Below are positions 1 to 28,000 of a stretch of 64,000 nucleotides of DNA, piece after piece. The notes under the pieces were generated by a model. The model searched no databases and was not told the DNA's origin. It was given only the letters and a program-made list of their open reading frames with translations. This DNA comes from a virus: IMG/VR virus record IMGVR_UViG_3300045988_159790; one strand, 5' to 3'. The translations under genes and the position numbers were made by a program. Position 1 is the first letter of the stretch; the number at the start of each line of letters is the position of its first letter.

Positions 1-45
1 CGAACATGCGCCGAAACAAATAATTACCAAAACAATTGTAACAAT
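1..45 (-). CDS. 5' end of leftward gene running off window; hydrophobic N-terminus (MIVTIVLVIICFGAC...)
   Basis: ATG at 45 (minus) with AAAGGGG RBS just upstream; frame open to window edge; minus-strand promoters at 121-149 and ~99-116 upstream. Confidence 0.3.
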   Translation of the reverse strand, partial: MVTIVLVIICFGACS

Positions 46-120
46 CATAAAACTCAACCCCTTTCTATATTTATATGATAACATATTTTTTTATAATTGT
101 CAACTCCTTTCTACATTGTT

Positions 121-149
121 ATTATAACATTTTGTAACTTATTTGTCAA
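121..149 (-). promoter_or_regulatory. minus-strand promoter TTGACA-17-TATAAT (proximal, cassette 1)
   Basis: rc hexamers attata 121-126 and tgtcaa 144-149. Confidence 0.6.
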
Positions 150-164
150 GAACTTTCTGAAAAA

Positions 165-192
165 CTTTGTTTTCAATCTCATTTGTTATCTG
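165..192 (-). promoter_or_regulatory. conserved leader motif CAGATAACAAATGAGATTGAAAACAAAG (minus sense), copy 1
   Basis: Near-identical 27-nt block present once in each cassette between the distal and proximal minus promoters. Confidence 0.5.
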
Positions 193-217
193 CTTTTCTC
201 TGTTCCTTACATTGAAT

Positions 218-246
218 AGTATAATACTTTGAGGCAGATATTGCAA
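218..246 (-). promoter_or_regulatory. minus-strand promoter TTGCAA-17-TATACT (distal, cassette 1)
   Basis: Read from rc. Confidence 0.5.
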
Positions 247-255
247 TAGACAATA

Positions 256-295
256 TGCACAAAGTTATGGGAAAATATTTGTGCAGTTTTATGTG
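256..295. promoter_or_regulatory. operator-like inverted repeat TGCACAAAG-N-TTTGTGCA
   Basis: 8-9 bp arms with ~15-bp spacer containing TTATGGGAAAAT; located 10-50 bp upstream of plus promoter. Confidence 0.4.
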
Positions 296-305
296 CGGAT
301 TTCGC

Positions 306-334
306 TTGACAAAATATCAAAAGTATGGTATAAT
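306..334 (+). promoter_or_regulatory. consensus sigma70-type promoter TTGACA-17-TATAAT (cassette copy 1, convergent to flanking genes)
   Basis: Exact hexamers and 17-bp spacer read from sequence. Confidence 0.7.
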
Positions 335-342
335 GGTAAATA

Positions 343-369
343 CCGGCGAAGCCGGACGCCTTCCAGGCG
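343..369 (+). ncRNA. promoter-proximal twin hairpins A (CCGGC-GAA-GCCGG) and B (CGCCT-TCC-AGGCG), copy 1
   Basis: Begins ~9 nt after -10; stems co-vary between copies. Confidence 0.35.
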
Positions 370-394
370 ATGATTTTCTGACGAAAATTTTAGT

Positions 395-426
395 CATAAC
401 TAAAAAGGTAGGCATTTCTGCCTACC
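395..426 (-). terminator. rho-independent terminator of 439..888 (GGGTAGGCAGAAATGCCTACC + TTTTT on minus)
   Basis: Hairpin plus T-run on minus strand. Confidence 0.7.
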
Positions 427-438
427 CGCAACTGACTA

Positions 439-888
439 TTATATTAAATCTTTAAGTCTTTCAATAATGTCCTGTCTCGCGTCTATCGTGCAACCCTGCG
501 ACCAACCGCGTCTTACCTTTTCATTATCATCAACTAATATCTGAAATCCGCCTAAATGTCTAGTACAATTGGCTTTCGTTGTGCCATACTTGACAAGATG
601 TACTTCATCATAAGGGAAACCTATCTGCTCAAGCCATGCTCTCTTAGCACTGCGAACAGCCGCGTCATATTTTTTATTGCTTTCCTTGCTTAACCAACTT
701 ACAATAACAATCTTCCAACCATTAATCTTGAGTGTATTAATCAAATCGTTTAACATTGTAGGCTCATAAACTGGCTGTGCTATCTCATAAGGGCGAGTGC
801 TACAATTCTTTAAATCTTCAAGCCAACCCTCAACTCCATAGAAATCTGCTATTGTTCCGTCCATATCAAAAACTAAAATTTTATTCAT
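439..888 (-). CDS. HAD-superfamily phosphatase (5'-nucleotidase-like)
   Basis: N-terminal FDMDGTIADF (DxDGT motif I), VIVSW (motif II), LVDDN (motif IV); RBS AGAGGT; intrinsic terminator 395-426 just downstream. Confidence 0.75.
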   Translation of the reverse strand: MNKILVFDMDGTIADFYGVEGWLEDLKNCSTRPYEIAQPVYEPTMLNDLINTLKINGWKIVIVSWLSKESNKKYDAAVRSAKRAWLEQIGFPYDEVHLVKYGTTKANCTRHLGGFQILVDDNEKVRRGWSQGCTIDARQDIIERLKDLI

Positions 889-944
889 ATTATATACCTC
901 TTTTCTTTTTTAGATTGTCGGGGCTTTTCAGCCCCAACTTATTA

Positions 945-1916
945 TTAGCAATATCCCTCAAGCATTAACATTAAGCCCTCAATCTTACTTACATAAGAAT
1001 TATGCGTTGTCTGCTGGCTAAGATAGTTGTTAAATGCTTCAATAACTACTGGAATGGCTTTCGGTCTCTTGTTAATAGCATAATCGTAAGTTGTACCCAG
1101 TTCTCTGAAAGGAAAAGCCTTGAGTATTGGTTCAATCTTGCCTTTCTTTAATGCCTTTGTGAGAATATCAGCTTCTATCTCACTATCACTTAATGCGGTA
1201 TGGTCCTCAGTAAAATCGTATCTCTTATTAAGATACTGGAAGCTAGTTTCTGCTGAAGATTTAAAGAACTCTCCGCTGTTAGTGATTAAGCTATTGTCAA
1301 GACAGAAGTTTCTGTACTTATCAATATTTATTAATCTCTCACAAGCTACTGCCCATAAGTCCACGATAGGAAACTCAAAATCTCTTAACTTAAATACTGG
1401 TTTAAGATACTCTGGATTACTCTCTCTATCATCTTTATATCCCCTAACAATCTTCTCACAACTCATTCTCTGCTTATCTTCCCAGTACTGATAGCCTGGT
1501 GCGTAAAGGTGTGCGATGTACTGTTCTGTAAAAGGAATTGCTTTCTTGTAATCAAATGCGGCATTGTATGCACATGTGCAAGTACACATTTCCAAATCTT
1601 CAAGCAATTCTGCAACCATATCATTCCAGTTGCGAACACCTATCTTACCCTCTGCGAGAAGCTGTTCATAAATAGGGCGCTTATTGCGGTAATAGGCTGT
1701 ATTAAAGATAGCCGGTACAAAGAAAGTTTCCTGAATAAGATAATTAACTCTCTTTACTCTATTGCCCAATCTGTCTGTTATTACCCAGCCTATATCATAA
1801 ACAAGTGGCTTGGCAATAGCAATCTTCTGTTTCTGTTTCGGATTCTTTGCAATCTCATTTGCAAAAGGTAGTGTAGCAGTCTCCGTGTCCAATGTTAAAT
1901 AATACTTCTTTTTCAT
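945..1916 (-). CDS. DEDDh 3'-5' exonuclease (DnaQ-like)
   Basis: Exo I LTLDTETAT, Exo II YNAAFD, Exo III HTALSDSEIEAD motifs; RBS GAGGT; co-transcribed with 439..888 (no promoter in 889-944). Confidence 0.85.
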   Translation of the reverse strand: MKKKYYLTLDTETATLPFANEIAKNPKQKQKIAIAKPLVYDIGWVITDRLGNRVKRVNYLIQETFFVPAIFNTAYYRNKRPIYEQLLAEGKIGVRNWNDMVAELLEDLEMCTCTCAYNAAFDYKKAIPFTEQYIAHLYAPGYQYWEDKQRMSCEKIVRGYKDDRESNPEYLKPVFKLRDFEFPIVDLWAVACERLINIDKYRNFCLDNSLITNSGEFFKSSAETSFQYLNKRYDFTEDHTALSDSEIEADILTKALKKGKIEPILKAFPFRELGTTYDYAINKRPKAIPVVIEAFNNYLSQQTTHNSYVSKIEGLMLMLEGYC

Positions 1917-1955
1917 TTCTAAATGATACCTCTTTTCTTTGATTTCTATGTGTTT

Positions 1956-1985
1956 ATTATAACACCCTTTTTATTATTTTGTCAA
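1956..1985 (-). promoter_or_regulatory. minus-strand promoter TTGACA-18-TATAAT (proximal, cassette 2; drives exonuclease-HAD operon)
   Basis: Read from rc. Confidence 0.6.
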
Positions 1986-2001
1986 GTGGTTTTTTAAAAA
2001 A

Positions 2002-2028
2002 CTTGTTTTCAATCTCGGTTGTTATCTG
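2002..2028 (-). promoter_or_regulatory. conserved leader motif copy 2
   Basis: cttgttttcaatctcggttgttatctg. Confidence 0.5.
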
Positions 2029-2057
2029 TTTTTCTCTGTTCCCCTTGAACAATTATA

Positions 2058-2086
2058 ATTATAGACCTACTACAAGAGAATGTCAA
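2058..2086 (-). promoter_or_regulatory. minus-strand promoter TTGACA-17-TATAAT (distal, cassette 2)
   Basis: Read from rc. Confidence 0.6.
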
Positions 2087-2132
2087 GCATTTTTTAGGAA
2101 AAAATTGTTTTTATTTTAGTACATAAAATCGC

Positions 2133-2161
2133 TTGACAAATTACCGAAAGTATGCTACAAT
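2133..2161 (+). promoter_or_regulatory. promoter TTGACA-17-TACAAT (cassette copy 2)
   Basis: Read from sequence. Confidence 0.65.
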
Positions 2162-2169
2162 GCAAAATT

Positions 2170-2196
2170 CCGGCAAAGCCGGTCGCGCAGAGCGCG
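2170..2196 (+). ncRNA. twin hairpins A (CCGGC-AAA-GCCGG) and B (CGCGC-AGA-GCGCG), copy 2
   Basis: Same position relative to promoter; compensatory stem changes. Confidence 0.35.
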
Positions 2197-2205
2197 GTGA
2201 AAATG

Positions 2206-2232
2206 TAAAGAAAAAGTGCGGATTTCCGCACT
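2206..2232 (-). terminator. rho-independent terminator of 2231..2575
   Basis: AGTGCGGAAATCCGCACT + TTTTTC on minus. Confidence 0.7.
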
Positions 2233-2575
2233 AATTCTGATACAAATTTTTTACTTCTATTACATTTCCGCAACTATCACATTTATAATAATAATAGTTA
2301 GTACCTCCTACACCTCTTCCGCGACTGGAAGCACTAACAAATTCATAATGTCCATTTTCGCATTCTGTACAAATTCCATTATTCCATGTTTTTATATCGC
2401 TATCTGCCTCTTGTATAAGACCAAAAGAGAATAAACCCGCAATTATACTTGTAGTTATAATAAATACTAATATTTTTAACCATTTCTTTTTAGTATTCAT
2501 ATTACTAATTATTATTATACCGAAGAATGAACAAATAAGAAACATTAAACAAAACATAACGATATTTCTAAACAT
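2231..2575 (-). CDS. hypothetical membrane protein, two TM helices plus C-terminal CxxC...CxxC zinc ribbon
   Basis: 114 aa ORF, RBS AAAGGGG, hydrophobic segments, CTEC...CDSC; terminator hairpin at 2206-2232. Confidence 0.5.
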   Translation of the reverse strand: MFRNIVMFCLMFLICSFFGIIIISNMNTKKKWLKILVFIITTSIIAGLFSFGLIQEADSDIKTWNNGICTECENGHYEFVSASSRGRGVGGTNYYYYKCDSCGNVIEVKNLYQN

Positions 2576-2613
2576 ATTTTACCCCTTTCTTGGGGCTGTA
2601 TAGCCCCAATCCT

Positions 2614-3084
2614 TTATAATGTTTTACACTCTGCGACGAAATACTTCGCATGATATTTTTCTACAATAGCCTTTACAACAGTGCTTTGCTTTTGTGTCTC
2701 ACAATAGACATTGAATAACATATACTTCTCAATATCTATGTAGCTATATGGAATCCTTAAAGTGTCTAAAGTTTCCATTAACTCTTTAGCATAATGTGGC
2801 TTCACTGTCATTTCCACTTTCCATAGTTTATCTCTTGTACTCTTTTCTTCAATCAGCTTTACAATGTAAACTCCGATAAGATTACACATAGCTATTATGA
2901 AAGCCTTTAAGAGAAGCGGAAGGTCGCACATCATGTATATTACTACAATAGTATACAAACCATAGGCTAATGCGTTGATTGCGGCGGCAGCTCCTTTTCC
3001 ACACTTGACAGTTACTAAAGATTTTGCTGTCTGAATAATAACATTTACAATGTTAAGAATAATAAATAAAACTAATAAATTCAT
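2614..3084 (-). CDS. hypothetical membrane protein (N-terminal TM helices, soluble C-terminal domain)
   Basis: 156 aa ORF with GAGGT RBS; hydrophobic N-terminal half. Confidence 0.5.
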   Translation of the reverse strand: MNLLVLFIILNIVNVIIQTAKSLVTVKCGKGAAAAINALAYGLYTIVVIYMMCDLPLLLKAFIIAMCNLIGVYIVKLIEEKSTRDKLWKVEMTVKPHYAKELMETLDTLRIPYSYIDIEKYMLFNVYCETQKQSTVVKAIVEKYHAKYFVAECKTL

Positions 3085-3101
3085 AATTAATACCTCTTTT
3101 C

Positions 3102-3323
3102 TTAATATTCTTTTACTTCTCTTACTAAATCAACTGGTTCAGGTGGTACATCTGCTTCTGTAAGGTCTAACCAACAATGTCGCTCAAGCCATCTCAAAAG
3201 AACTAACTGTTCTCCTGTTATGTGTAAATATGTTGGCAGATTATCTTCATCATCATAATTGCCCTCAAGGTCTAATTTCTTAATACTTACATCATATTCA
3301 TCTTTCATAATTGAATACCTCAT
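3102..3323 (-). CDS. hypothetical small acidic protein (probable true start at internal ATG 3308, MKDEYD...)
   Basis: ORF; GAGGT RBS sits 8 nt upstream of the internal ATG. Confidence 0.45.
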   Translation of the reverse strand: MRYSIMKDEYDVSIKKLDLEGNYDDEDNLPTYLHITGEQLVLLRWLERHCWLDLTEADVPPEPVDLVREVKEY

Positions 3324-3350
3324 TTCTATTCTATGTTTTTGTCAAGGATA

Positions 3351-3377
3351 CTTGTTTTCAATCTTATTTGTTATCTG
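3351..3377 (-). promoter_or_regulatory. conserved leader motif copy 3
   Basis: cttgttttcaatcttatttgttatctg. Confidence 0.5.
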
Positions 3378-3395
3378 TTCCCTTGAACAATTATA

Positions 3396-3423
3396 ATTAT
3401 AACAGATTATAAGCAAATGTCAA
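3396..3423 (-). promoter_or_regulatory. minus-strand promoter TTGACA-16-TATAAT (distal, cassette 3)
   Basis: Read from rc. Confidence 0.55.
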
Positions 3424-3467
3424 GCAGTTTTGGGAAAATAAAAAAATTTTTTATTTTGATTTTTCTC

Positions 3468-3496
3468 TTGACAAAAATGCCAAAATGTGATATAAT
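3468..3496 (+). promoter_or_regulatory. promoter TTGACA-17-TATAAT (cassette copy 3)
   Basis: Read from sequence. Confidence 0.7.
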
Positions 3497-3505
3497 ATCA
3501 AAATA

Positions 3506-3541
3506 CCGGCGAAGCCGGACGCCCACAGGGCGGTCTTTTTT
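3506..3541 (+). ncRNA. twin hairpins A and B (CGCCC-ACA-GGGCG) followed by T-run GTCTTTTTT; a ~40-nt promoter-to-terminator unit, copy 3
   Basis: Hairpin B plus T7 forms an intrinsic terminator on plus strand. Confidence 0.4.
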
Positions 3542-3545
3542 GAGC

Positions 3546-3582
3546 ATAAAAAGCTGATGACTATTAGTTTAGTCATCAGCTT
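3546..3582 (-). terminator. rho-independent terminator of 3587..3952
   Basis: AAGCTGATGACTAAACTAATAGTCATCAGCTT + TTTT on minus. Confidence 0.7.
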
Positions 3583-3586
3583 ACAG

Positions 3587-3952
3587 CTACTTTTTCTTTC
3601 TATGCTTTATCAGCGACAGTGAGTATTCATTCTCGCCGATGTTAAAGGTCAACTCTTTCTGCGGATTGGCTATCTGAACATTACTAATCTTGCCATTAAG
3701 TACCATTCCTCCAAGTAGAGTTTTTAAACACCCGATAAAATCAACCTTTTCATCATCGAGTTTTACTTCTCGTGGCTTCCGCGGTTTCTTTTCAGCTTCC
3801 GCACCCTTAACATAGTTTTTTATTCCCTTAGCTTTGATTTCCATTTCCGCCATTTCCATAGCTTCTTCTTTTGTGACTGGTTCTCCGTCTGCTTCACATT
3901 CCTTGAAAATCTTTAAAGCTAACTTCTCTAAGGCTTCTTTTTTACTATCCAT
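3587..3952 (-). CDS. hypothetical protein
   Basis: 121 aa ORF, RBS AGAGGT, rho-independent terminator 3546-3582 immediately downstream. Confidence 0.55.
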   Translation of the reverse strand: MDSKKEALEKLALKIFKECEADGEPVTKEEAMEMAEMEIKAKGIKNYVKGAEAEKKPRKPREVKLDDEKVDFIGCLKTLLGGMVLNGKISNVQIANPQKELTFNIGENEYSLSLIKHRKKK

Positions 3953-3974
3953 GCCCTATACCTCTTTCTTTTAA

Positions 3975-3999
3975 ATTGGGCGGTGTATTTCAACCGCCC
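3975..3999 (-). terminator. GC-rich hairpin after 4009..4386 (weak T-run)
   Basis: GGGCGGTTGAAATACACCGCCC. Confidence 0.35.
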
Positions 4000-4008
4000 G
4001 TCCGCAGA

Positions 4009-4386
4009 TTAGACAAGTGAGAAGATTGCCTTGTCCTTTTCCTCTTCTCTCTTTGCTGTGCCATTGGCAACCATAATCTTGAGAAGTGCAACTACTTTCT
4101 GATTAGAAAGCGCCTGAACCGCTTCATCAGCAGGGAAGTCTTTCATAGCCTTGAGCATAATCTGAGTAGAAGTACCCTTGAAACCGTCAAGGACAACCTT
4201 GAGCTTCTCAACCAGTGCTTCATTAGCCTTAGCTTTCTTATCAGAACCAGCCTTAGCCTTAGCTTTCTTCTTCTCAAGGAGTTCCTTTTCGTGCATAAGA
4301 TAAGTCTTATACATCTCATTGTCCTGTACGAACTCTTCTCCAAGCATAGCCTCGATAACCTGTAACTTTGTAATCTTCTTTTCCAT
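4009..4386 (-). CDS. hypothetical protein (K/E-rich, helical)
   Basis: 125 aa ORF, RBS GAGGT; hairpin 3978-3999 downstream. Confidence 0.5.
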   Translation of the reverse strand: MEKKITKLQVIEAMLGEEFVQDNEMYKTYLMHEKELLEKKKAKAKAGSDKKAKANEALVEKLKVVLDGFKGTSTQIMLKAMKDFPADEAVQALSNQKVVALLKIMVANGTAKREEEKDKAIFSLV

Positions 4387-4498
4387 AATGCAATACCTCG
4401 CTTTTATATAATATTTGAAGCTGATTTTTATTTTTTAATGTGGTCGATTGATGGCTCCCTTTCCTTTCCACATATATATGATAGCACATTTTATTGCG

Positions 4499-4789
4499 CT
4501 AGTCAAGCATAAATAATGTCATTCCGGCTATTTCCTTTTCTACCACTTCTAAAGTATCTAAATGAATAGTGGCTCTGACTATCTTCCAACAGCCAGTTTC
4601 AAACTTGTTGTGTTCATGGCGGCGTGGTAGTCTCTCTGCGGCATGGACTGCACTCTGACAATCTTCAAATACACCATCTATAACATAAGCAACTTGCGTT
4701 CCCATGCAATCTAAGTATCTCATTACTTTTAAGACATACTTAGTCTCTGTTTTTCTTGGTACATGCTTAGTCTCTGTTCCCATAACCAT
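4499..4789 (-). CDS. hypothetical protein
   Basis: 96 aa ORF directly downstream of minus-strand TTGACA-17-TATAAT promoter 4810-4838; RBS GGAAG. Confidence 0.5.
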   Translation of the reverse strand: MVMGTETKHVPRKTETKYVLKVMRYLDCMGTQVAYVIDGVFEDCQSAVHAAERLPRRHEHNKFETGCWKIVRATIHLDTLEVVEKEIAGMTLFMLD

Positions 4790-4809
4790 TACTTCCTTTC
4801 TATACCCTT

Positions 4810-4838
4810 ATTATATCACTTAGGTATCTATTTGTCAA
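4810..4838 (-). promoter_or_regulatory. minus-strand promoter TTGACA-17-TATAAT (proximal, cassette 4)
   Basis: Read from rc. Confidence 0.6.
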
Positions 4839-4860
4839 GCACTTCTTTTTTTTTGTTCGG

Positions 4861-4888
4861 GTTGTTTAGCAATCTCATTTGTTATCTC
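4861..4888 (-). promoter_or_regulatory. conserved leader motif copy 4 (more diverged)
   Basis: gttgtttagcaatctcatttgttatctc. Confidence 0.4.
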
Positions 4889-4901
4889 CCTTACAAGTAT
4901 C

Positions 4902-4929
4902 ATTATAGCAGATTGCCCCAAAATTGCAA
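4902..4929 (-). promoter_or_regulatory. minus-strand promoter TTGCAA-16-TATAAT (distal, cassette 4)
   Basis: Read from rc. Confidence 0.5.
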
Positions 4930-4939
4930 TAGTCAAAAC

Positions 4940-4969
4940 TGCACAAGATTTTGGGATAATGTTTGTGCA
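4940..4969. promoter_or_regulatory. operator-like inverted repeat TGCACAAG-N-TTTGTGCA
   Basis: Same architecture in cassette 4. Confidence 0.4.
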
Positions 4970-4988
4970 ATATGTCAACTTTTTTCCC

Positions 4989-5017
4989 TTGACAAAAATC
5001 CTAAAAGGTGGTATAAT
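4989..5017 (+). promoter_or_regulatory. promoter TTGACA-17-TATAAT (cassette copy 4)
   Basis: Read from sequence. Confidence 0.7.
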
Positions 5018-5026
5018 AGGCAAATT

Positions 5027-5050
5027 CCGGCGGGGCCGGACGTGCTCCGC
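5027..5050 (+). ncRNA. hairpin A (CCGGC-GGG-GCCGG) and degenerate hairpin B, copy 4
   Basis: Same spacing from -10. Confidence 0.3.
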
Positions 5051-5059
5051 CCGGTGCGA

Positions 5060-5200
5060 TTATTCTAACTTAAATTAGTTTGAACTAACAAGTGTTTTAT
5101 AAGTCTAACTTAAGTTAGCTTAATCTAACTACAGTTAGTTTGAATTAACAAGGATTAGCTTAATCTAACTAGAGTTAGTTTGAATTAACAACTGTTAAAA
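5060..5200. repeat. tandem ~40-bp iterons (2 near-identical plus 2 degenerate) each carrying palindrome CTAACT-N2-3-AGTTAG followed by TTTGAATTAACAA
   Basis: agcttaatctaactacagttagtttgaattaacaagg at 5117 and 5157; degenerate copies at 5060 and 5098. Confidence 0.7.
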
Positions 5201-5299
5201 ATTGCTAACTTTACTTTTATAAAACGAACTTCAATTCGTCTTCTCTAACTTTAATTTTATACAGCTAATTACAGATATTTGTAGCTAATTAAAATTAGA

Positions 5300-5335
5300 G
5301 AACGCAAATCGAATTTTGGAGGGTTGCCGCTACTT
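5300..5335 (-). terminator. hairpin GGGTTGCC-N7-GGCAACCC overlapping stop of 5330..5614 (weak T-run)
   Basis: 8-bp stem. Confidence 0.35.
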
Positions 5336-5614
5336 GGCAACCCAAACCTTTAATATTATGTCGTCATATTTAGACGACTGGTCATTAATGTCAAATAACA
5401 TCTTGACATTTTGACCCTCCGCGATATCACAGCCATCATATTCCCAGATATCGCCTGCCCTATCAGCAATCCGCACAAATCCATTATCATTGCTGATTAC
5501 CTTACCCTCTCTTGTACAGTGACCCTCAAGGTATATCGCGCCTAAGAATAATATTCCTAAAACTAAACCCAGGGCTATTCTTTTAACTATTGCTTTACTA
5601 TTGTTTTTTCTCAT
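5330..5614 (-). CDS. hypothetical secreted/membrane-anchored protein
   Basis: 94 aa ORF, N-terminal basic stretch plus hydrophobic helix (signal/anchor-like), RBS GAGGT. Confidence 0.5.
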   Translation of the reverse strand: MRKNNSKAIVKRIALGLVLGILFLGAIYLEGHCTREGKVISNDNGFVRIADRAGDIWEYDGCDIAEGQNVKMLFDINDQSSKYDDIILKVWVAK

Positions 5615-5675
5615 TTTAAATACCTCATTTCATTTTTATTTTTATATGTGGGCTTGGCTTCCCAAGCCCTAATCA

Positions 5676-5984
5676 TTAACAATATATCAAACTCATGTCT
5701 GCCCACTTGAGAATAGATATCTGTGCGCATTGTCTACCAAGTGCCAAAGCGTCTCTTTTTGTAGACACTCTGTGGCTCTTGTCTACAAAATAAACGCCAT
5801 TCTCAAGCCAAAGTCCGCAATTACCACCGTATGCTCTAACGGCTTTAATTGCTTCCTCGGGAGTTGTAACCATTACTCCCTCGGTGGCTACTTGATAACC
5901 ACTCTTGTATGTGATTATCTTACCATTCTTGAGTGTTAAACCGCCACACTCCTCAATCTTTCTTATTGTCCTAATGTTTATCAT
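5676..5984 (-). CDS. hypothetical protein
   Basis: 102 aa ORF with RBS GTGAGGT. Confidence 0.5.
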   Translation of the reverse strand: MINIRTIRKIEECGGLTLKNGKIITYKSGYQVATEGVMVTTPEEAIKAVRAYGGNCGLWLENGVYFVDKSHRVSTKRDALALGRQCAQISILKWADMSLIYC

Positions 5985-6026
5985 ACTTATAATACCTCAC
6001 TTTCTTTTCTCTTGGATAGTCCCGGC

Positions 6027-6356
6027 TTAGTAGCCGAGACTTATTAACTTGTCTATGTAAGAGTTCAGAACTGCTACAAACTGCTTGTTTGTCATCTTTC
6101 TAAACCTCTCAAGTGTAAAGTCGATAGGCGGAAGTTCTACACCCTCAACCTTTATGATGTACACCTGCGGACACGCTTTAATTGCATTGACTGCATGGAA
6201 GATGTTCACATCTTCGTATATATAAGTTGTGTCCTCATAGTTTGCAAATCTCATTGAGAACTTCTCTTTTGTATACATATTTAATTTCTTCATAGTAACC
6301 TCTTTTCTGTCTCTCTCTTGAAAGACTATCAATTTTATTTTACGGTTTTCGTTCAC
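6027..6356 (-). CDS. hypothetical protein
   Basis: 109 aa ORF with RBS AGAGGT. Confidence 0.5.
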   Translation of the reverse strand: MNENRKIKLIVFQERDRKEVTMKKLNMYTKEKFSMRFANYEDTTYIYEDVNIFHAVNAIKACPQVYIIKVEGVELPPIDFTLERFRKMTNKQFVAVLNSYIDKLISLGY

Positions 6357-6583
6357 CGCACCATTATAATATCATACCCCGTTTTCAATGTCAACACTTT
6401 TTTCAAAAATTTTTAAAAATTTTTTTATGCCCTATTTTCAAGGCTTTTCACGCACCCAAACACATGCACCAGACGATGATGTGACTACTTTTTTAGTCAG
6501 CAATAGTGACGATGTGTTTACTTTTGTAGTCAAATAGTCATCAATTATGGGATATGATTAGTCTTGTAGTCACACTCAATGTC

Positions 6584-6652
6584 GATTTGAAAAGTTTAAA
6601 TAACTAGTCAAATAGGCAAAATGCGACACGCTTTATGGGAGGAAGCGTGCCG
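6584..6652 (+). repeat. conserved ~70-bp element with hairpin whose loop is UAUGGGAGG (copy A)
   Basis: gatttgaaaagtttaaataactagtcaaataggcaaaatgcgacacgctttatgggaggaagcgtgccg; stem cacgctt/aagcgtg. Confidence 0.5.
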
Positions 6653-6660
6653 TTCAAAAT

Positions 6661-6780
6661 AACTAACCAAAGTTAGTCAAGCCTAACAATAGTTAGACTA
6701 AACTAATTAGATTTCGGGAAGACTAACTAGAGTTAGTTTGAATTAACAAGCATTAAGCTTGACTAACTCAAGTTAGTCTT
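6661..6780. repeat. second cluster of four CTAAC(T)-N-(A)GTTAG palindromes including one full iteron copy (gactaactagagttagtttgaattaacaag)
   Basis: actaac-caaa-gttagt, ctaac-aata-gttag, gactaact-ag-agttag, gactaact-ca-agttagtc. Confidence 0.65.
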
Positions 6781-6790
6781 TCCTAAACTA

Positions 6791-6823
6791 GATGAGTGCG
6801 GATTAGCGGTTTCCGCACTCATC
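6791..6823. repeat. perfect inverted repeat with 11-12 bp arms (GATGAGTGCGG ... CCGCACTCATC)
   Basis: Read from sequence; no adjacent T-run on either strand. Confidence 0.6.
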
Positions 6824-6979
6824 TAATAGACTAGACATGAAGCCGATGATGAACTCCATAAGACTAAGAAGTTCGTCATCAGATATGACTATGTGCGTAA
6901 GCACAAAGTCAACTTTCTGATTGACTTCTGTGACAGTGGAGCATTGCTCCACCATCACTATAGCTTCTAAAAAACTCAT
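6803..6979 (-). CDS. small hypothetical protein (58 aa, MSFLEAIVMVEQCSTVTEV...), not in ORF track
   Basis: Strong RBS GGGGAGGTGG; ATG overlaps the TGA of upstream gene 6976..7461 in ATGA arrangement (translational coupling); stop codon lies in loop of perfect 12-bp-arm palindrome 6791-6823. Confidence 0.45.
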   Translation of the reverse strand: MSFLEAIVMVEQCSTVTEVNQKVDFVLTHIVISDDELLSLMEFIIGFMSSLLDECGNR

Positions 6980-7461
6980 TCTACCACCTCCCCAGTTTTT
7001 TCATTTACTAAGCTACATCTAAGACCTAGTATTTTGCAAGCTTTAGCTGTATTATAGAATACTGATAATGCTGTGCCATAACTTTCAATCCCTGTAAAGA
7101 TTGGAGTGTTGCCATTATAAACTCCGTAGGTTACTTCCTGGAGTTCAAACTCCGCGATTGCGGAGTTTACTTGATTCTGCATTTCCTTAAGTAATGCTCC
7201 ACCGAAAAGCTCCTGAAGCTGATTGCCTTGAGTGAGACAGTCAAGTTCCATCTCTAACTTTGCCCAACACTCTGCTGAATCCTCATAAATAAACCCCTTG
7301 AGGATTATCTTGCAATCTACAGCATTAACTACACTGTGGATTGTATTGATTATCATAAGAGCATTATCTGCTACTGTATCAACACAGAGCCAGTTGCCCT
7401 CTTTAACTTCTTTACCTATTATTGACCTCATTGTTGCAATCAGCTTGTTTCCTTTTATCAT
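6976..7461 (-). CDS. hypothetical protein (ORF track start 7491 is TTG; ATG at 7461 with GGAAAGAGGT RBS preferred)
   Basis: ORF, RBS-supported internal ATG (MIKGNKL...). Confidence 0.5.
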   Translation of the reverse strand: MIKGNKLIATMRSIIGKEVKEGNWLCVDTVADNALMIINTIHSVVNAVDCKIILKGFIYEDSAECWAKLEMELDCLTQGNQLQELFGGALLKEMQNQVNSAIAEFELQEVTYGVYNGNTPIFTGIESYGTALSVFYNTAKACKILGLRCSLVNEKTGEVVE

Positions 7462-7573
7462 AATATACCTCTTTCCGCCCTTGCTTCTCAAGGGCTATCT
7501 AATTTATTTTGCCGCCATTGCCTTGCGACACCATTATAGTACACCCACCGCGCACTCATTGCAATATGCAAAA

Positions 7574-7603
7574 TGCACAAAGTTTGACAGATGTTTTTGT
7601 GCA
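7574..7603. promoter_or_regulatory. operator-like inverted repeat TGCACAAAG-N-TTTGTGCA (third copy, outside a full cassette)
   Basis: Preceded by same ATTGCAATA context as copies 1 and 4. Confidence 0.4.
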
Positions 7604-7741
7604 ATTTGTACAAAAGAGAATGCACCAAGATGGAAGTACCGAACATTTGTTCACCGCTTTAGTCAGCTCCGAGAATAGTTTAGTTTTTTAGACGCATGAG
7701 TTGTGGGAATTTTTATTTGACTACTTGATTAGACTTTTAGA

Positions 7742-7810
7742 ATTTGAAATGTTTAAATGACTAGAAATATAGTAAAATGCGGAGCGCTTTATGGGAGGAA
7801 GCGCGCCGAT
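7742..7810 (+). repeat. conserved ~70-bp element copy B with compensatory stem change (gcgctt/aagcgc)
   Basis: aatttgaaatgtttaaatgactagaaatatagtaaaatgcggagcgctttatgggaggaagcgcgccg. Confidence 0.5.
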
Positions 7811-7987
7811 GATTTGAAAATGTACGGGACTACAGTCTCAGTGTATGCTGATTATTTTTTGATAAAACTACAGACCATACATAAAAGGTGGTCATCAGTT
7901 TAAAATAAAAAAATTTTCTCTTTTTACCCGGGGATATATTATGGGAAAATGAAAAATTAATTCGATGAAATCATATTTAGCTGGTAC

Positions 7988-8050
7988 ATTCACACACCCC
8001 AAATTTTTTGAAATTTAAAAAACGATTCACACACCAAAAATTTTTTCGTT
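7988..8050. repeat. direct repeat ATTCACACACC(C/A)AAAATTTTTT x2 (37-bp period)
   Basis: Read from sequence. Confidence 0.5.
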
Positions 8051-8065
8051 TTTTAAAATACGAGA

Positions 8066-8371
8066 TTAATTCCGAACAACTCTTCCATGTTTCCCTGTTT
8101 GCTTATATGCCATAAACAGATTATTTAATTTAGTATTATTTCCATCCCCTAAGTTAATTAATAGGAAATCACAATTTTTTATAATATCTGAAGTTTCCGC
8201 ATTTTTTATATAGCGGGTCGGCGCGCCAACCGAATCAGCCCATTTTGCGGCAATGCTATCTTTATTTGTTACTAGCATATAAAATAAATAGCATTGACTT
8301 TCCGCAATTAACTTCTGCATTTCCGCATCAATATCTTCAATTTTATTAAAACCAATCGCCGCGACTATCAT
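8066..8371 (-). CDS. hypothetical protein, first gene of leftward arm at the divergent promoter region
   Basis: 101 aa ORF, RBS AAAGGAGTG, minus-strand TTGAAA-17-TATAAT promoter 8394-8422. Confidence 0.5.
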   Translation of the reverse strand: MIVAAIGFNKIEDIDAEMQKLIAESQCYLFYMLVTNKDSIAAKWADSVGAPTRYIKNAETSDIIKNCDFLLINLGDGNNTKLNNLFMAYKQTGKHGRVVRN

Positions 8372-8393
8372 TTTTATTCACTCCTTTATAATA

Positions 8394-8422
8394 ATTATAT
8401 CAAAAATTTTTTTTCTTTTCAA
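8394..8422 (-). promoter_or_regulatory. minus-strand promoter TTGAAA-17-TATAAT for 8066..8371
   Basis: Read from rc; divergent from plus promoter 8440-8468. Confidence 0.55.
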
Positions 8423-25020: not shown

Positions 25021-28000
25021 ATGGCAGGAAGAAAAAGAATTGATATTGATATAGGGTTCAATACCGATACCTCAAGAGCAAAAGCTCAAATTCAAGATTT
25101 ACAAAAACAGATAGTTAATTTATCGGTTGCCGCAAAGCAGAATACAGCAACTAATACCTTATCTTCTGATATTTCCAAAGCTGTAATAGAAGCTAGTAAA
25201 TTAAATGGTATATTATCACAATCAATGACTTTTAAGGGAGATAACCTTGATTTATCTAAATTTGTTACAAACTTAAATAAGTCTGGTACTACTATTTCTC
25301 AAGTTCGTAAGAATTTAGAATCATTAGGTCCTCAAGGTCAAAAAGCATTTACATCTTTAGCGCAATCTATTATGTCTGCGGAAGTTCCTTTAAGACAGTC
25401 TGAAGGACTTTTAAAGAGTTTTTCTACTACTCTTACAAATAGTGCGAAATGGACTGTAGCTTCAGGTGCCGTTCATCAAGTACAAACAGAATTTAGTAAA
25501 GCTTTTGAATATAGTAGAAAGCTTGATAAATCATTAAATGAAATTAGAATAGTATCTGGAGAAAGTTCAGATAATATGGCTAAATTTGCTAAACAAGCAA
25601 ATGAATCTGCCAAAGCTTTAAATACAACAACAACTGCATATACAAATGCGGCATTAATCTTCTATCAGCAAGGTCTGGATACTGCCGCAGTTAAGGAACG
25701 TACTGATGCAGTTACAAAGATGGCAAGTGTTACAGGAGAGACTGCGGCGGATGTTTCTTCTTATATGACAGCTATTTGGAATAACTTTAATGATGGTTCA
25801 AAAAGCGTAGAATACTTTGCAGATGTTCTTACTGCATTAGGTGCGGCAACTGCATCTAGTACAGATGAAATCGCAGCAGGTCTTGAGAAGTTTGCTTCTA
25901 TTGGTAATACTGTAGGTTTATCATACGAATATGCTACTTCTGCTCTTGCAACTGTTGTTGCAGAAACTCGTCAGTCCGCAGATACTGTAGGTACTGCATT
26001 TAAGACATTATTCGCACGTATCCAGGACTTAGAGTTAGGTAATACTTTAGATGATGGAACAACATTAGGTCAGTATTCTAAGGCTCTTGAATCTATTGGT
26101 GTTAATATTAAAGATTCAAAAGGCGAAGTTCGTGATATGGATGATATCTTAGACGATATGGGTTCTAAATGGAAAACCATTTCTAAGGATACACAGATTG
26201 CAGTTGCGCAAGCAGTTGCAGGTACTCGTCAGTATAGCCAATTAATTGCCTTAATGGATAAATGGGATGTCTTCCAAGAGAACTTAAATATAGCTAAGGG
26301 TGCAGAAGGTTCTTTACAACAGCAAGCTGATATTTATGCAGAATCATGGGATGCCGCATCTAAGAAAATAAAAACTTCATTAGAAGAAATTTATTCAAAT
26401 CTTATTGATAGTAAAACTATGGTTGATTTAATGAAATTCCTTAGTAAAGCTATTGAAGGATTTGGTCATTTTGTTGATTCTGTTGGTGGAGTTAGAACTG
26501 CTTTTATTTTATTAGCAAATACTATAATTTCTAATCAAGGTCCTCAAATAAGCAAATATGTTGATAAAGTTGTTGATAACTTTAAAATTAAATTTGGTAT
26601 TATGGGCAAAGAAATTGAGGCAACCCGAGAGAAGGCTCAAAAAGAATATAAAGCTATGATTGCGGGAATGGATATAAGAACGCCAGAAGACCGTGCGCAA
26701 GTAGCTAATATGAAAGCAAATTATGATATTGAAAATGCTATTTTTGAGAAGAAAAAAGAGTTAGCTAAAATAAATGCAAATTTAACTGAATCTCAAATAG
26801 AACAAATAGCTAATGAAAAAGCTCAATTAAAACAATTAACAGAAGAAGCTGAAGTTACAGCTCAGATTTATGATACTAAAAATAAAGCTAGACACGCTGC
26901 ATCTGACGATATTTCATCTATTGGTCAGAGATTTAAAAGCACTAATTTATCTTTAGACAACGTAGACAGTAAAAAAATTCGTGAAAAAATTACTTCAGAA
27001 GTAAACAAAGCTTATTATGCAAAAAATTTACCTGAAAATACTTTACAAGAGCTTTATGCAAAGAAAGTATTATTAGGTGAAGCAGATGAATTACCTAGTG
27101 AATATTATCTTAGTCAAAACTATAAAGGTATAGAAAAAACCAGAGCAAGAAATAGCCGCTATTGGGATATGATACATCAAGTTGACCCTGCAGATGAGAA
27201 TGGTAATTATAGATTCTCAGAAAAAGAACGAAGACCAACAAATAGTGCGAATATTAATAAAACAGTATATAAATCATACCTTGAAAAATATAGAGATACT
27301 AAAAAGTTAGCTGAAGGCATGGTTAATCCTAATTTTGATGAAGAAGCACAGGAAGCTCTTCAGAATCAATTTTTTGAAGACTATAATGCTGCAGAATTAG
27401 CATATGCTGGAAATGAAACTAATATTTCTACTAGTAATAAAGTTTTAAATTTATTTGATATGAATAAAGTTAAATCAGGTAAATTTTCTTTAAAAGATAT
27501 GCAAGAAACATTATCTACTCTTTATAATTCTTCAAATGAAAATAAGCGAATGATTGATGACCTTATGAAATTAAATGAATATAAAAAAGAAGGTAATATT
27601 AAAAAGCTTATTACTGGTCAGAATGTAGCAGGTGCAGATAAAACAGACTATGCTCATATGCTACAGATGATTGAAAACAATAGAACGAGTTATCTTACAA
27701 ATCGAGATACTCTTAGTGGCAATCTCAGAGGTGTTTTACAAAATTACGGTTTTGAAGCTACAGATGTTACAAAGATATCTGACGCACTTGATGAACAACA
27801 TAAAGCGATAAAGGCTTCAGATAAGTCTTTAGCAGATTATGTAAAATCTTTATTAGATGTTCAAAATCATTCTAAATCAGTAGTTGATTCTATTAATGAG
27901 ATGGGATTTTCTGTAGGTAGTATTGGCGAGAATTTTGCTAATGGCGCGAGTGCTATGAGTAGTTTTGCGATGACTGCTAATAGTGCTTATTCTGTTTTTG

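What the first reader, a model, noticed from the sequence alone, without database searches (positions are those of the whole stretch)
6584..7810. Two copies of a ~70-bp element with a hairpin displaying UAUGGGAGG in its loop, with a compensatory stem change
Copies at 6584-6652 and 7742-7810 share ATTTGAAA-GTTTAAAT-ACTAG...AAAATGCG...CGCTTTATGGGAGGAAGCG. The stem differs by a compensatory pair (acgctt/aagcgt versus gcgctt/aagcgc), supporting selection on structure. The loop exposes a perfect SD-like GGGAGG but no real ORF follows (only a 9- and a 13-codon frame). Candidates: a small RNA, an SD-mimic that titrates ribosomes or a regulatory protein, or a structured promoter-proximal element. Copy B has a plausible TTGAAA-18-TATAGT promoter just upstream.
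Basis: partly seen in the sequence, partly recalled or inferred. Interest (0 to 1): 0.55.

Follow-up and report, generated by a model that had tools for sequence, protein, structure and literature searches.

The report
Repeated phage promoter with start-proximal hairpin
The two 70-bp copies are real and are most likely two copies of a regulated rightward promoter whose transcript begins with a GC-rich hairpin, a local variant of a cassette that recurs throughout the early region of a large group of SPbeta-like gut phages; the ribosome-binding-site look of the loop is probably incidental.

Summary
Copies A (6584-6652) and B (7742-7810) are 84% identical, are the only two in the window, and recur in four close relatives. 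Each is a TTGAAA-type promoter region followed by a 10-bp interrupted GC stem with loop UAUGGGAGG. No conserved ORF follows.

In related SPbeta-like phages, GC-rich hairpins sit 4-10 nt after the -10 box of perfect sigma-A promoters. I found this arrangement on the late-gene strand, and only twice on the other strand as well. Leftward promoters instead lead into unstructured leaders with SD and ATG. In a phage whose sigma factor is 83% identical, three such modules carry the same stems as A and B behind perfect promoters.

So A and B are best read as promoter plus 5'-proximal hairpin of non-coding rightward transcripts, probably a 5' protective structure. B has a fair promoter. A has a degenerate one.

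The SD-like loop is not a feature of the wider family: loops vary, there is no enrichment, and hairpins at B's position elsewhere read UGGACUGAC. The compensatory pair is a single event. A minus-strand terminator reading is not excluded. No transcript data exist. Interest is modest.

The parts
6584..6652 (+). Copy A of the repeated element: promoter-like block plus hairpin
   Evidence: Conserved in relatives L011, L012, L060 and L274.
6587..6615 (+). Copy A promoter-like region: -35 TTGAAA (6587-6592) with a poor -10, either TCAAAT at 6608-6613 (15-nt spacer) or AAATAG at 6610-6615 (17-nt spacer)
   Evidence: Read from the sequence. The promoter scan did not flag it. It aligns with the perfect promoter of the L267 module at 3999.
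6624..6652 (+). Hairpin A: arms CGACACGCTT / AAGCGTGCCG, loop TATGGGAGG (6634-6642), one A.C mismatch
   Evidence: The stem is nearly identical to L267 3999-4025, CGGCACGCT...AGCGTGCCG.
7742..7810 (+). Copy B of the repeated element
7744..7773 (+). Copy B sigma-A-type promoter TTGAAA-18-TATAGT; the -10 box is invariant in the three aligned B copies
   Evidence: 10 of 12 matches.
7780..7808 (+). Hairpin B: arms CGGAGCGCTT / AAGCGCGCCG, loop TATGGGAGG (7790-7798). It starts 6 nt after the -10 box. One internal mismatch varies among relatives (A.G, U.U, A.A).
   Evidence: The 5' arm equals that of L267 5177-5203, CGGAGCGCA.
6478..6572 (.). Three 22-nt repeats carrying GACTA-N6-TAGTC operator-like palindromes upstream of copy A (6483-6498, 6556-6571)
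   Evidence: family D2; 11 sites in the window, 1.5 expected.
7719..7774 (.). Operator-like palindromes at copy B: 7719-7734 upstream of the -35 box, and 7759-7774 overlapping the -10 box
6662..6777 (.). Array of ACTAAC-N4-GTTAGT palindromes in strict 10/20-nt register, directly downstream of copy A
   Evidence: It is 98-100% conserved in close relatives.
6789..6825 (.). Perfect hairpin with a 14-bp stem closing the A unit. It overlaps the stop codon of the minus-strand 58-aa ORF.
   Evidence: In L011 three substitutions give G.U pairs on the + strand and A.C mismatches on the - strand.
306..370 (+). r1: perfect sigma-A promoter followed by two GC hairpins (sister family of rightward non-coding modules)
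2133..2197 (+). r2: the same kind of module
3468..3533 (+). r3: the same kind of module; its second hairpin is followed by GTCTTTTTTG
4989..5055 (+). r4: the same kind of module. It is followed by a second palindrome array (5064-5299) and a closing hairpin (5321-5343), the same layout as copy A.

Best explanation
A and B are two paralogous copies of a regulatory cassette made of two halves.

DNA half: a host sigma-A-type rightward promoter with -35 box TTGAAA. The -10 box is good in B and degenerate in A. The promoter is preceded and overlapped by GACTA-N6-TAGTC operator-like palindromes, so it is probably controlled by a phage DNA-binding protein.

RNA half: the first ~30-35 nt of the transcript fold into an interrupted 10-bp GC stem, leaving only about 1-5 unpaired nucleotides at the 5' end.

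The cassette is the local form of a module that recurs in the early region of this SPbeta-related phage clade. That module is a rightward promoter followed by a GC hairpin and no ORF, pointing against the 3' end of the neighbouring leftward early operon.

The most likely role of the hairpin is a 5'-terminal protective stem-loop that makes a non-coding or antisense transcript long-lived. The transcript from A would carry or cross the palindrome array and end near the 6789-6825 hairpin. The transcript from B would run towards the conserved GGGG-TATAT-GGGAAAA box. The SD-like loop could add 30S binding, as in STAB-SD or the aprE leader, but this is the weakest part of the model.

Shown here: the repeat, the fold, the family architecture, its strand bias, and the absence of an ORF. 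Inferred: that transcription actually starts at these promoters, the stabilising role, and any ribosome binding.
For: - Promoter B is flagged at 10 of 12 matches. Its -10 box is invariant in three phages.
- Of 95 promoter-like sites in the 64-kb window, only 7 are followed by a 45-nt stretch that folds at -11 kcal/mol or better. Five of those are r1-r4 and B. All five are on the + strand within the first 8 kb.
- Across 14 phages, + strand consensus promoters in the early region run into GC-rich hairpins (-14 to -34 kcal/mol). About 98 - strand consensus promoters run into AU-rich leaders with SD and ATG, median -1.2 kcal/mol.
- Of 61 GC hairpins, 17 have a promoter of at least 10/12 ending 3-13 nt upstream on the + strand, 0 have one on the - strand only, and 2 have both.
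- L267 (sigma factor 83% identical) has modules TATAAT-N8-CGGCACGCT-TGGAGAGCT-AGCGTGCCG and CGGCGCGCA-GGGAGTGAT-TGCGCGCCG, with the same stems as A and B.
- A covariance model built from 10 members of other phages ranks A and B second and third in the window, full length and on the + strand.
- In those 10 members the stems keep pairing through 8 double-sided changes.
- In r1-r3 and in several relatives, canonical - strand terminators lie between the - strand gene and the hairpin. The hairpin is therefore not needed as that terminator.
- Operator-like palindromes are enriched, and one overlaps the -10 box of B.
- Known precedent: 5' stem-loops and SD-like sequences stabilise Bacillus mRNAs against RNase J1 (PMC4113751 section 3.2; PMC3997798 references 95, 106, 109, 179).
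Against: - There are no transcript data, so no start site is shown.
- Copy A lacks a credible -10 box (one search does not flag it).
- Hairpins at B's position in L267, L273 and L022 have no recognisable promoter upstream.
- The covariance-model E-values are weak, 0.22 and 0.7.
- Covariation within the six A/B copies is not significant.
- The family alignment was selected for perfect stems, which inflates its statistics.
- G.U versus A.C substitutions do not discriminate the strand for the A/B stem: one event favours each strand.
- For A and B, unlike r1-r3, no other GC-rich hairpin lies between the upstream - strand gene and the element apart from 6789-6825, so a - strand 3'-end role is possible.
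- The SD-like loop is not conserved outside the closest relatives.
Confidence: 0.5

Rival explanations
1. Minus-strand reading. The hairpin is the 3'-end structure (a weak intrinsic terminator or 3' stabiliser) of the leftward transcripts. One comes from the 171-aa and 58-aa genes plus the array (copy A), the other from the 101-aa gene (copy B). On that strand the loop reads CCUCCCAUA, an anti-SD-like C-rich loop of the kind used by Firmicute sRNAs to pair with ribosome-binding sites. This would make the element a 3'-UTR-derived regulatory RNA end.
For: - The - strand folds as well or better: -14.4 kcal/mol, z = -4.6 for A.
- The stem is followed on that strand by CAUUUUG / CAUUUUA, and the AAAATGCG block is invariant in all six copies.
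- No other GC-rich hairpin lies between the 101-aa gene and B.
- The hairpin after the 58-aa gene has only GUUUAGG as a tail.
- Window copy A makes a full 10-bp stem on the - strand through a G.U pair.
Against: - The terminator scan does not flag either copy on either strand; there are only 4 U in the first 8 nt.
- In the wider family the hairpins lie beyond canonical - strand terminators. They keep a fixed 4-10-nt distance from a + strand -10 box, which a - strand terminator has no reason to keep.
- The A copies of L011 and L012 have an A.C mismatch on the - strand.
- No anti-SD-like loop is seen in 24 other family members.
Confidence: 0.2
2. Protein- or polymerase-recognition hairpin. The nascent hairpin, with its conserved loop and tolerant stem, is bound by a phage factor or acts on RNA polymerase in cis. 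This is the logic of lambda nutL/nutR boxB with N protein, or of HK022 putL/putR. It would alter elongation or termination of the rightward transcripts.
For: - There are two promoter-proximal copies per genome. The loop is nearly invariant while the stem varies.
- Hairpins at B's position in other phages likewise keep a loop (UGGACUGAC or UGGACUGCG in L267, L022 and L273) while the stems covary.
- The + strand transcripts meet strong hairpins without U-tracts.
Against: No N-like or Q-like protein was identified: neighbouring genes have no Pfam, PHROG or PDB matches. There is no Rfam match. No boxA-like motif was identified. This reading rests on analogy only.
Confidence: 0.12
3. DNA-level site. 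The GC inverted repeat, or the whole 69-bp block, is a binding site for a dimeric phage protein, or part of an origin or partition region together with the neighbouring palindrome arrays. RNA folding would then be irrelevant.
For: - The neighbouring arrays look like DNA sites: conserved arms, free centres, and strict 10-nt register.
- Operator-like palindromes surround both copies.
- The promoter spacer is unusually conserved.
- Precedent: the SPbeta repeated element is the operator of the master repressor MrpR (PMC10516654).
Against: - Within the family the stems differ in sequence between paralogous modules of one genome while staying self-complementary. That is the signature of folding, not of a sequence-specific operator.
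- The internal mismatch is tolerated and variable.
- A 9-bp centre conserved more strongly than the arms is atypical for a palindromic operator.
Confidence: 0.1
4. SD mimic that titrates ribosomes or an SD-binding regulator, or a micro-ORF starting at the in-loop ATG. The ORF would read MGGS(A/V)P..., 8 aa in B and 13 aa in A.
For: - GGGAGG is a strong match to the anti-SD sequence and is displayed in a loop.
- The B micro-ORF keeps its stop codon in three phages, and codon 5 varies synonymously: GCG, GCT, GCA.
Against: - L012 copy B reads GGGAGU.
- There is no enrichment of SD-like loops in the family.
- Hairpins at B's position elsewhere have unrelated loops.
- RNAfold pairs the last G of the motif.
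- Two weak-to-moderate promoters could not plausibly titrate the cell's ribosomes (inference).
- The micro-ORF has no conserved SD: GGAG at -12 occurs in only 2 of 6 copies. It also differs in length and sequence between A and B.
Confidence: 0.06

Closest known systems
5'-terminal stabilising stem-loops and SD-like 5' stabilisers of Bacillus mRNAs: aprE leader, cry3A STAB-SD, and the SP82 phage polypurine stabiliser
   Same: A structured element or SD-like sequence within a few nucleotides of the RNA 5' end. It is not used for translation and can block 5'-to-3' decay by RNase J1 (PMC4113751 section 3.2; PMC3997798 references 95, 106, 109, 179). One precedent, SP82, is itself a Bacillus phage early RNA.
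   Different: Here the SD-like motif sits inside the hairpin loop rather than in single-stranded RNA. No protein-coding message follows. The motif is not conserved across the family. Neither the 5' end nor any stabilisation has been measured.
PeSL cassettes (promoter-early stem-loop) of T4-like phages
   Same: Short repeated intergenic cassettes (~70-100 bp) that combine a strong host-type early promoter with a GC stem-loop, concentrated among small variable early genes (PMC2839356, PMC4122927). In L274 a ~1.5-kb gene insertion is flanked by a duplicated r4-type module.
   Different: In PeSLs the stem-loop lies upstream of or overlapping the promoter and terminates transcription on the same strand, and an SD with a gene start follows. 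Here the hairpin lies downstream of the -10 box, the neighbouring genes are on the opposite strand, and the breakpoints of the variable segment between A and B lie inside genes, not at A or B.
SPbeta repeated element (SPBRE), the operator of the master repressor MrpR
   Same: A short motif repeated in promoter regions of about ten operons of an SPbeta-type phage, serving as a repressor binding site (PMC10516654). The GACTA-N6-TAGTC and TGCACAAA...TTTGTGCA palindromes here have the same distribution logic.
   Different: SPBRE is a 15-bp DNA motif with no associated RNA hairpin. Sequence similarity to it and the presence of an MrpR homologue were not tested.
Cis-antisense RNAs of SPbeta type I toxin-antitoxin systems (SR4, SR6)
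   Same: Small stable RNAs transcribed convergently into the 3' end of a neighbouring phage operon (PMC5848175, PMC3531473).
   Different: The adjacent ORFs here (58, 101 and 94 aa) do not look like small hydrophobic or basic toxins. No overlap with a toxin mRNA has been shown.
lambda nutL/nutR and HK022 putL/putR (from my own knowledge)
   Same: Two promoter-proximal copies per genome of a hairpin with a conserved loop and a tolerant stem.
   Different: No boxA, no N-like protein and no two-stem put architecture were identified. This resemblance is a lead only.

Membership tests
Clade-wide rightward promoter plus start-proximal GC-hairpin module (defined here) | GC-rich hairpin with a 7-10-bp stem and a 7-13-nt loop | tested here: met
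   10-bp interrupted stems, 9-nt loop, -13 to -20 kcal/mol.
Clade-wide rightward promoter plus start-proximal GC-hairpin module (defined here) | Sigma-A-type promoter whose -10 box ends 4-10 nt upstream of the stem on the same strand | tested here: inconclusive
   B: TTGAAA-18-TATAGT, 10 of 12 matches, 6 nt before the stem. A: same -35 box, but the -10 box is only 2-4 of 6, with a 17- or 15-nt spacer, and it is not flagged.
Clade-wide rightward promoter plus start-proximal GC-hairpin module (defined here) | Orientation on the late-gene strand, within the block of leftward early genes, with no SD plus ATG following | tested here: met
Clade-wide rightward promoter plus start-proximal GC-hairpin module (defined here) | Detected by a covariance model built from members of other phages | tested here: inconclusive
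   A scores 12.5 bits (E = 0.22) and B 11.0 bits (E = 0.7). They rank second and third over 128 kb searched, full length and on the + strand. A terminator ranks first.
Clade-wide rightward promoter plus start-proximal GC-hairpin module (defined here) | Stem sequence shared with bona fide members | tested here: met
   L267 3999 has CGGCACGCT/AGCGTGCCG, against CGACACGCTT/AAGCGTGCCG in A. L267 5177 has CGGAGCGCA, against CGGAGCGCTT in B.
STAB-SD / SD-type 5' stabiliser | SD-like sequence complementary to the 16S rRNA 3' end that does not direct translation | tested here: met
   GGGAGG sits in the loop, and no conserved ORF follows.
STAB-SD / SD-type 5' stabiliser | The SD-like sequence is conserved among homologous elements | tested here: not met
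   GGGAGU in L012 copy B. Hairpins at B's position elsewhere have UGGACUGAC or UGGACUGCG loops. No enrichment in 24 family members, P = 0.38.
STAB-SD / SD-type 5' stabiliser | Location near the mapped 5' end, 30S binding, and stabilisation that depends on RNase J1 | not testable with these tools
   Needs 5'-end mapping, toeprinting and half-life assays.
Rho-independent terminator (minus strand) | GC-rich stem followed directly by a U-rich tract | tested here: not met
   The scan requires at least 5 T in 8 nt and flags neither copy on either strand. The tails are CAUUUUGC and CAUUUUAC.
Rho-independent terminator (minus strand) | Lies downstream of a gene on that strand with no earlier terminator | tested here: met
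   the 101-aa gene ends at 8066 with no GC hairpin before B. The 58-aa gene is followed by 6789-6825, which has a poor U-tract.
PeSL (T4-like promoter-early stem-loop) | Stem-loop upstream of or overlapping the promoter, acting as a same-strand terminator, with the SD and start of a downstream gene at the 3' end | tested here: not met
   The hairpin is downstream of the -10 box and no gene follows on that strand. Definition taken from PMC2839356.
PeSL (T4-like promoter-early stem-loop) | Cassettes are the recombination breakpoints of variable ORFan modules | tested here: not met
   The variable segment between A and B breaks at about 7128 and 7456, inside genes. One r4-type duplication does flank an insertion in L274.
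Any Rfam family | Match at the gathering score, or a suggestive E-value | tested here: not met
   nothing at gathering score. Only chance-level hits overlap the element (EF3314_EF3315, 14.9 bits against a threshold of 100).
SPBRE-type repeated operator | Short motif repeated at several promoters and bound by the phage repressor | not tested
   GACTA-N6-TAGTC is enriched, 11 sites against 1.5 expected. Binding was not tested, and neither the sequence relation to SPBRE nor the presence of an MrpR homologue was examined.

The most novel reading that the evidence does not exclude
This large clade of SPbeta-like gut phages has 5,860 sigma-factor homologues at E <= 1e-40. On this reading, the clade devotes a set of its strongest host-type promoters to making short, 5'-hairpin-capped non-coding RNAs, and these are aimed at the 3' ends of its own early operons. 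They would form an undescribed RNA layer that times or limits early (host-takeover) gene expression. A and B would be the repressor-controlled members. Their GGGAGG loop would be functional, for example by recruiting 30S subunits or by kissing a CCUCC-containing partner.
Probability: 0.15. Interest if true: 0.65.

Novelty: new variant of a known kind. Interest (0 to 1): 0.36.

Why it matters
If these cassettes really fire, the phages run systematic convergent transcription: every leftward early operon is met by a strong rightward promoter making a capped non-coding RNA. That would be a simple and testable way to time or limit early gene expression in a very abundant and uncultured group of Firmicute phages. 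The hairpins would also be portable 5' stabilisers. For the finding as stated, the result is sobering. The ribosome-binding-site look of the loop, which made the element eye-catching, is not what is conserved.

Tried and rejected
- Rfam at gathering score and at E <= 5: nothing relevant.
- Phage collection, blastn with the 1.8-kb region: no match.
- Exact-pattern scans of viral contigs. Only the two close relatives are true hits; the other hits are coding-sequence coincidences.
- Metagenome and genome scans with AAAATGC-N7-TTTATGGGAG. The pattern was too loose: 120 and 106 hits, of which only L060 is real, and L060 is identical to the window. No host was identified.
- nhmmer with a profile of the six copies against the loci holding sigma homologues of 53-83% identity: no significant hit.
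- Pfam, PHROG and PDB searches for the flanking small genes: no function.
- Late-promoter hypothesis: candidate late promoters look different, TTGGTC...TGTAATTTAT.
- tRNA-like reading of the 'hairpin plus CCA' seen in relatives: ARAGORN finds nothing, and A and B lack the CCA.
- Strand assignment from G.U versus A.C substitutions: ambiguous for the A/B stem and for the arrays. It is suggestive of the + strand only for the 6789-6825 hairpin in L011.
- Micro-ORFs: rejected as inconsistent between copies.
- PeSL-type recombination at A and B: breakpoints lie elsewhere.
- Enterococcus phage VRE9_2 (sigma factor 42% identical): it has a palindrome-rich 1.3-kb non-coding region but no promoter-hairpin modules.
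Full report
**1. The observation.**
Self-BLAST of the window pairs 6585-6652 with 7742-7808 at 84% identity, E = 4e-12. The loop-and-stem 17-mer and the upstream 23-mer each occur exactly twice in 64 kb, even with 3 mismatches allowed. By chance, 0.07 and 0.02 matches are expected.

Each copy has three parts:
- a promoter-like block, ATTTGAAA-N-GTTTAAAT-N-ACTAG;
- an invariant AAAATGCG;
- an interrupted 10-bp GC stem (A: 6624-6633/6643-6652; B: 7780-7789/7799-7808) with loop TATGGGAGG.

RNAfold gives -13.4 kcal/mol for A and -15.2 for B, and closes the loop to 7 nt with a U.G pair. Similarity between A and B ends right after the stem. The repeated unit is therefore promoter block plus hairpin and nothing more.

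No conserved ORF follows. The GTG in A and the ATG in B that lie downstream of GGGAGG are not kept in relatives. The in-loop ATG gives peptides of 13 and 8 codons that differ between copies.

**2. Context.**
The window is part of a ~150-kb phage with SPbeta-like packaging and structural genes. The evidence is the TerL relatives and YonG_N, YonD_N and YonB domains in relatives. It also encodes a phage sigma factor (phrog_5767) and anaerobic NrdD.

Positions 1-8400 carry small leftward genes of unknown function, separated by 300-600-nt control regions. From 8434 onward the genes run rightward. A and B lie in two of these control regions and point rightward, against the 3' end of the next leftward operon.

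**3. Conservation of the exact element.**
Both copies occur in IMGVR_UViG_3300045988_154566 and 3300014039_000016 (sigma factor 96% identical), in a Logan contig (L274, 99%), and in a short metagenome contig identical to the window. One relative's copy B has loop TATGGGAGT.

Among six aligned copies, 7 of 10 stem pairs never vary. One is a variable mismatch (A.G, U.U, A.A; U.G or C-G in the A copies). One is an A.C mismatch in window copy A. The covariation measures do not exceed shuffles, 322 of 500.

Beyond these close relatives the exact element is absent.

**4. The wider family.**
The window has a second set of rightward modules, r1-r4. Each is a perfect CTTGACA...TGnTATAAT promoter followed after 8-9 nt by two small GC hairpins. 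The second stem of r1-r3 changes by compensatory pairs.

Across the loci that hold sigma homologues of 53-83% identity, the same architecture recurs:
- Perfect 12-of-12 promoters on the + strand are followed 4-10 nt later by a GC hairpin. The consensus is AAUU-CGGCGCGC-loop(7-13 nt)-GCGCGCCG-CC.
- The roughly 98 consensus promoters on the - strand lead into unstructured AU-rich leaders with a Shine-Dalgarno sequence and ATG.
- Of 61 GC hairpins, 17 have a promoter just upstream on the + strand, none on the - strand only, and 2 on both.
- In the whole 64-kb window, r1-r4 and B are five of only seven promoter-like sites followed by a strongly folding start region. None of the seven is on the - strand.

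L267 (sigma factor 83% identical) links A and B to this class. Its modules at 3999 and 1340 have perfect promoters and stems CGGCACGCT/AGCGTGCCG and CGGCGCGCA/TGCGCGCCG. These are essentially the stems of A and B.

A covariance model built from ten members of other phages ranks A and B second and third in the window. The E-values are weak, 0.22 and 0.7. In that alignment all 70 cells pair and 8 cells carry double-sided changes; no shuffle reaches the observed covariation score. Because I chose sequences with perfect stems, that statistic is inflated.

**5. What the element most likely is.**
The fixed short distance between the -10 box and the stem, the strict strand bias and the lack of an ORF all fit a hairpin at the very 5' end of a rightward non-coding RNA. 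If transcription starts about 7 nt after the -10 box, the family consensus leaves about 3 unpaired nucleotides, B leaves about 1, and A leaves 3-5. This is my inference from the sequence. That geometry is what 5'-terminal protective stem-loops need, according to established work listed in PMC3997798 (references 95 and 109).

In r1-r3 and in several relatives a canonical leftward terminator lies between the leftward gene and the hairpin. The hairpin is therefore not needed to end the leftward transcript.

GACTA-N6-TAGTC palindromes are enriched, 11 sites against 1.5 expected. They sit upstream of both copies (6483, 6556, 7719), and one overlaps the -10 box of B at 7759. This marks the A/B promoters as regulated, in contrast to the apparently constitutive r1-r4.

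Copy A and r4 share a larger layout: promoter, 5' hairpin, array of CTAAC-N4-GTTAG palindromes, closing GC hairpin. In L011, three substitutions in the closing hairpin 6789-6825 all give G.U pairs on the + strand and A.C mismatches on the - strand. That is a small hint of + strand RNA.

**6. The SD-like loop.**
GGGAGG is a strong anti-SD match, and known precedents exist for untranslated SD-like 5' stabilisers: STAB-SD (PMC4113751) and the SP82 phage polypurine stabiliser (cited in PMC3997798, reference 179). Four results count against it being the selected feature:
- It is not invariant even among close relatives.
- The hairpin at B's position in L267, L022 and L273 has loop UGGACUGAC or UGGACUGCG, with covarying stems.
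- Among 24 other family members, SD-like tetramers occur 5 times against 4.0 expected from loop composition, P = 0.38.
- The loops are simply purine-rich on the + strand, 62%.

I therefore treat 30S binding as an optional extra and ribosome titration as unlikely.

**7. Rivals.**
- Minus-strand terminator or 3'-end hairpin with an anti-SD loop. This remains possible for A and B specifically. There is no other good terminator for the 101-aa gene, the AAAATGCG block is invariant, and the - strand fold is equal or better. Against it, the U-tract fails the scan, and the family geometry argues against a terminator.
- nut- or put-like recognition hairpin. This fits the pattern of conserved loop and tolerant stem, but it has no other support.
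- DNA operator. This fits the neighbourhood: the arrays have conserved arms, free centres and strict 10-nt register, and SPBRE/MrpR is a precedent (PMC10516654). It does not fit stems that differ between paralogous modules while staying complementary.
- Micro-ORFs. These are inconsistent between copies.

**8. Comparison with PeSLs.**
T4-like PeSL cassettes also combine an early promoter and a GC stem-loop and mediate shuffling of ORFans (PMC2839356, PMC4122927). Here the hairpin lies on the other side of the -10 box and the genes are on the other strand.

The segment between A and B is variable: 1147-1832 nt in four phages, and the 171-aa protein is only 44-56% identical. Its breakpoints lie inside genes, not at A or B. 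One r4-type duplication does flank a 1.5-kb insertion in L274.

Control regions are 85-100% conserved. The small genes between them are the variable parts.

**9. Verdict.**
The repeat is real and non-random. The SD-mimic idea is not supported. The compensatory pair carries little weight alone. The element is a local variant of an undescribed but conceptually familiar promoter-hairpin cassette. Everything about transcription remains inferred.

Noticed in passing
window 7927-7950; also L267 5401-5424, L273 ~305-330, L023 3156, L031 3776, L032 2696, L027 4859, L028 4631, L017 4758, L013 3725, L014 5250, L019 1974, L025 2127: A box is conserved in the window and 12 other phages of the clade, upstream of the sigma gene: (CC)GGGG(G)-TATAT(T)T-(C/T)GGGAAAAAA. 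It is usually preceded by ACGTAC(T/C) and followed by a T-run. Its function is unknown; it could be a promoter for a phage polymerase, an origin, or a packaging site.
   Followed up: partly
window 5064-5299 and 6662-6777: Two arrays of CTAAC-N4-GTTAG palindromes sit in strict 10/20-nt register over 230 and 115 nt. Arms are conserved and centres are free, and the arrays are 96-100% conserved in close relatives. They look like arrays of DNA-binding sites (iteron-like or centromere-like). Relatives have arrays with other arms: L027 has ACTTTA...TAAAGT with a period of 50, and L022 3890-4100 also has one.
   Followed up: partly
window ~250-290, ~2080-2120, ~4925-4975, 7570-7615; L023, L027, L031, L267: A TGCACAAA...TTTGTGCA palindrome lies between the divergent leftward and rightward promoters of most early control regions. 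It is conserved across the clade and is a candidate master-repressor operator, by analogy with SPBRE/MrpR of SPbeta.
   Followed up: no
L017, L022, L027, L028, L267, L269, L270 (coordinates listed): 14 of 24 promoter-proximal hairpins are followed by CCA at position +1 or +2 after the stem (consensus CCAAA), reminiscent of a tRNA acceptor end. Copies A and B lack it, and ARAGORN finds no tRNA in the window.
   Followed up: partly
L269 1783-1877 and L270 1790-1885: Two hairpins are flanked by near-perfect promoters facing each other (12/12 on both sides in L269; 10/12 and 12/12 in L270), with -10 boxes about 40 nt apart. Both strands would start with the same hairpin, a face-to-face arrangement like the phage 186 and P2 switches.
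   Followed up: no
L274 1570-3377 versus window 4922-5055: In a relative whose sigma factor is 99% identical, a ~1.5-kb block of small genes is inserted between two copies of the r4-type promoter-hairpin region. This fits cassette shuffling through these repeats.
   Followed up: partly
window 6050-6350 and 7150-7450: The small leftward early genes are far more divergent between close relatives than the control regions around them: 30-70% nucleotide identity, and the 171-aa protein is 44-56% identical, against 85-100% for the control regions.
   Followed up: partly
window 7988-8058: Two tandem 34-nt repeats, ATTCACACACC(C/A)AAATTTTTT..., lie between the conserved box and the 101-aa gene. Similar paired repeats occur at the same place in L027, L028 and L273.
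   Followed up: no
window ~34385, ~40105, ~48010: A shared motif TTGGTC(A/T)...TGTAATTTAT lies just after terminators and upstream of late genes. It is a candidate promoter for the phage sigma factor.
   Followed up: no
window 25021-34353 and 34458-39896: Two very large ORFs of 3110 and 1812 aa lie in the structural region. I presume they are tape-measure or tail proteins; I did not examine them.
   Followed up: no
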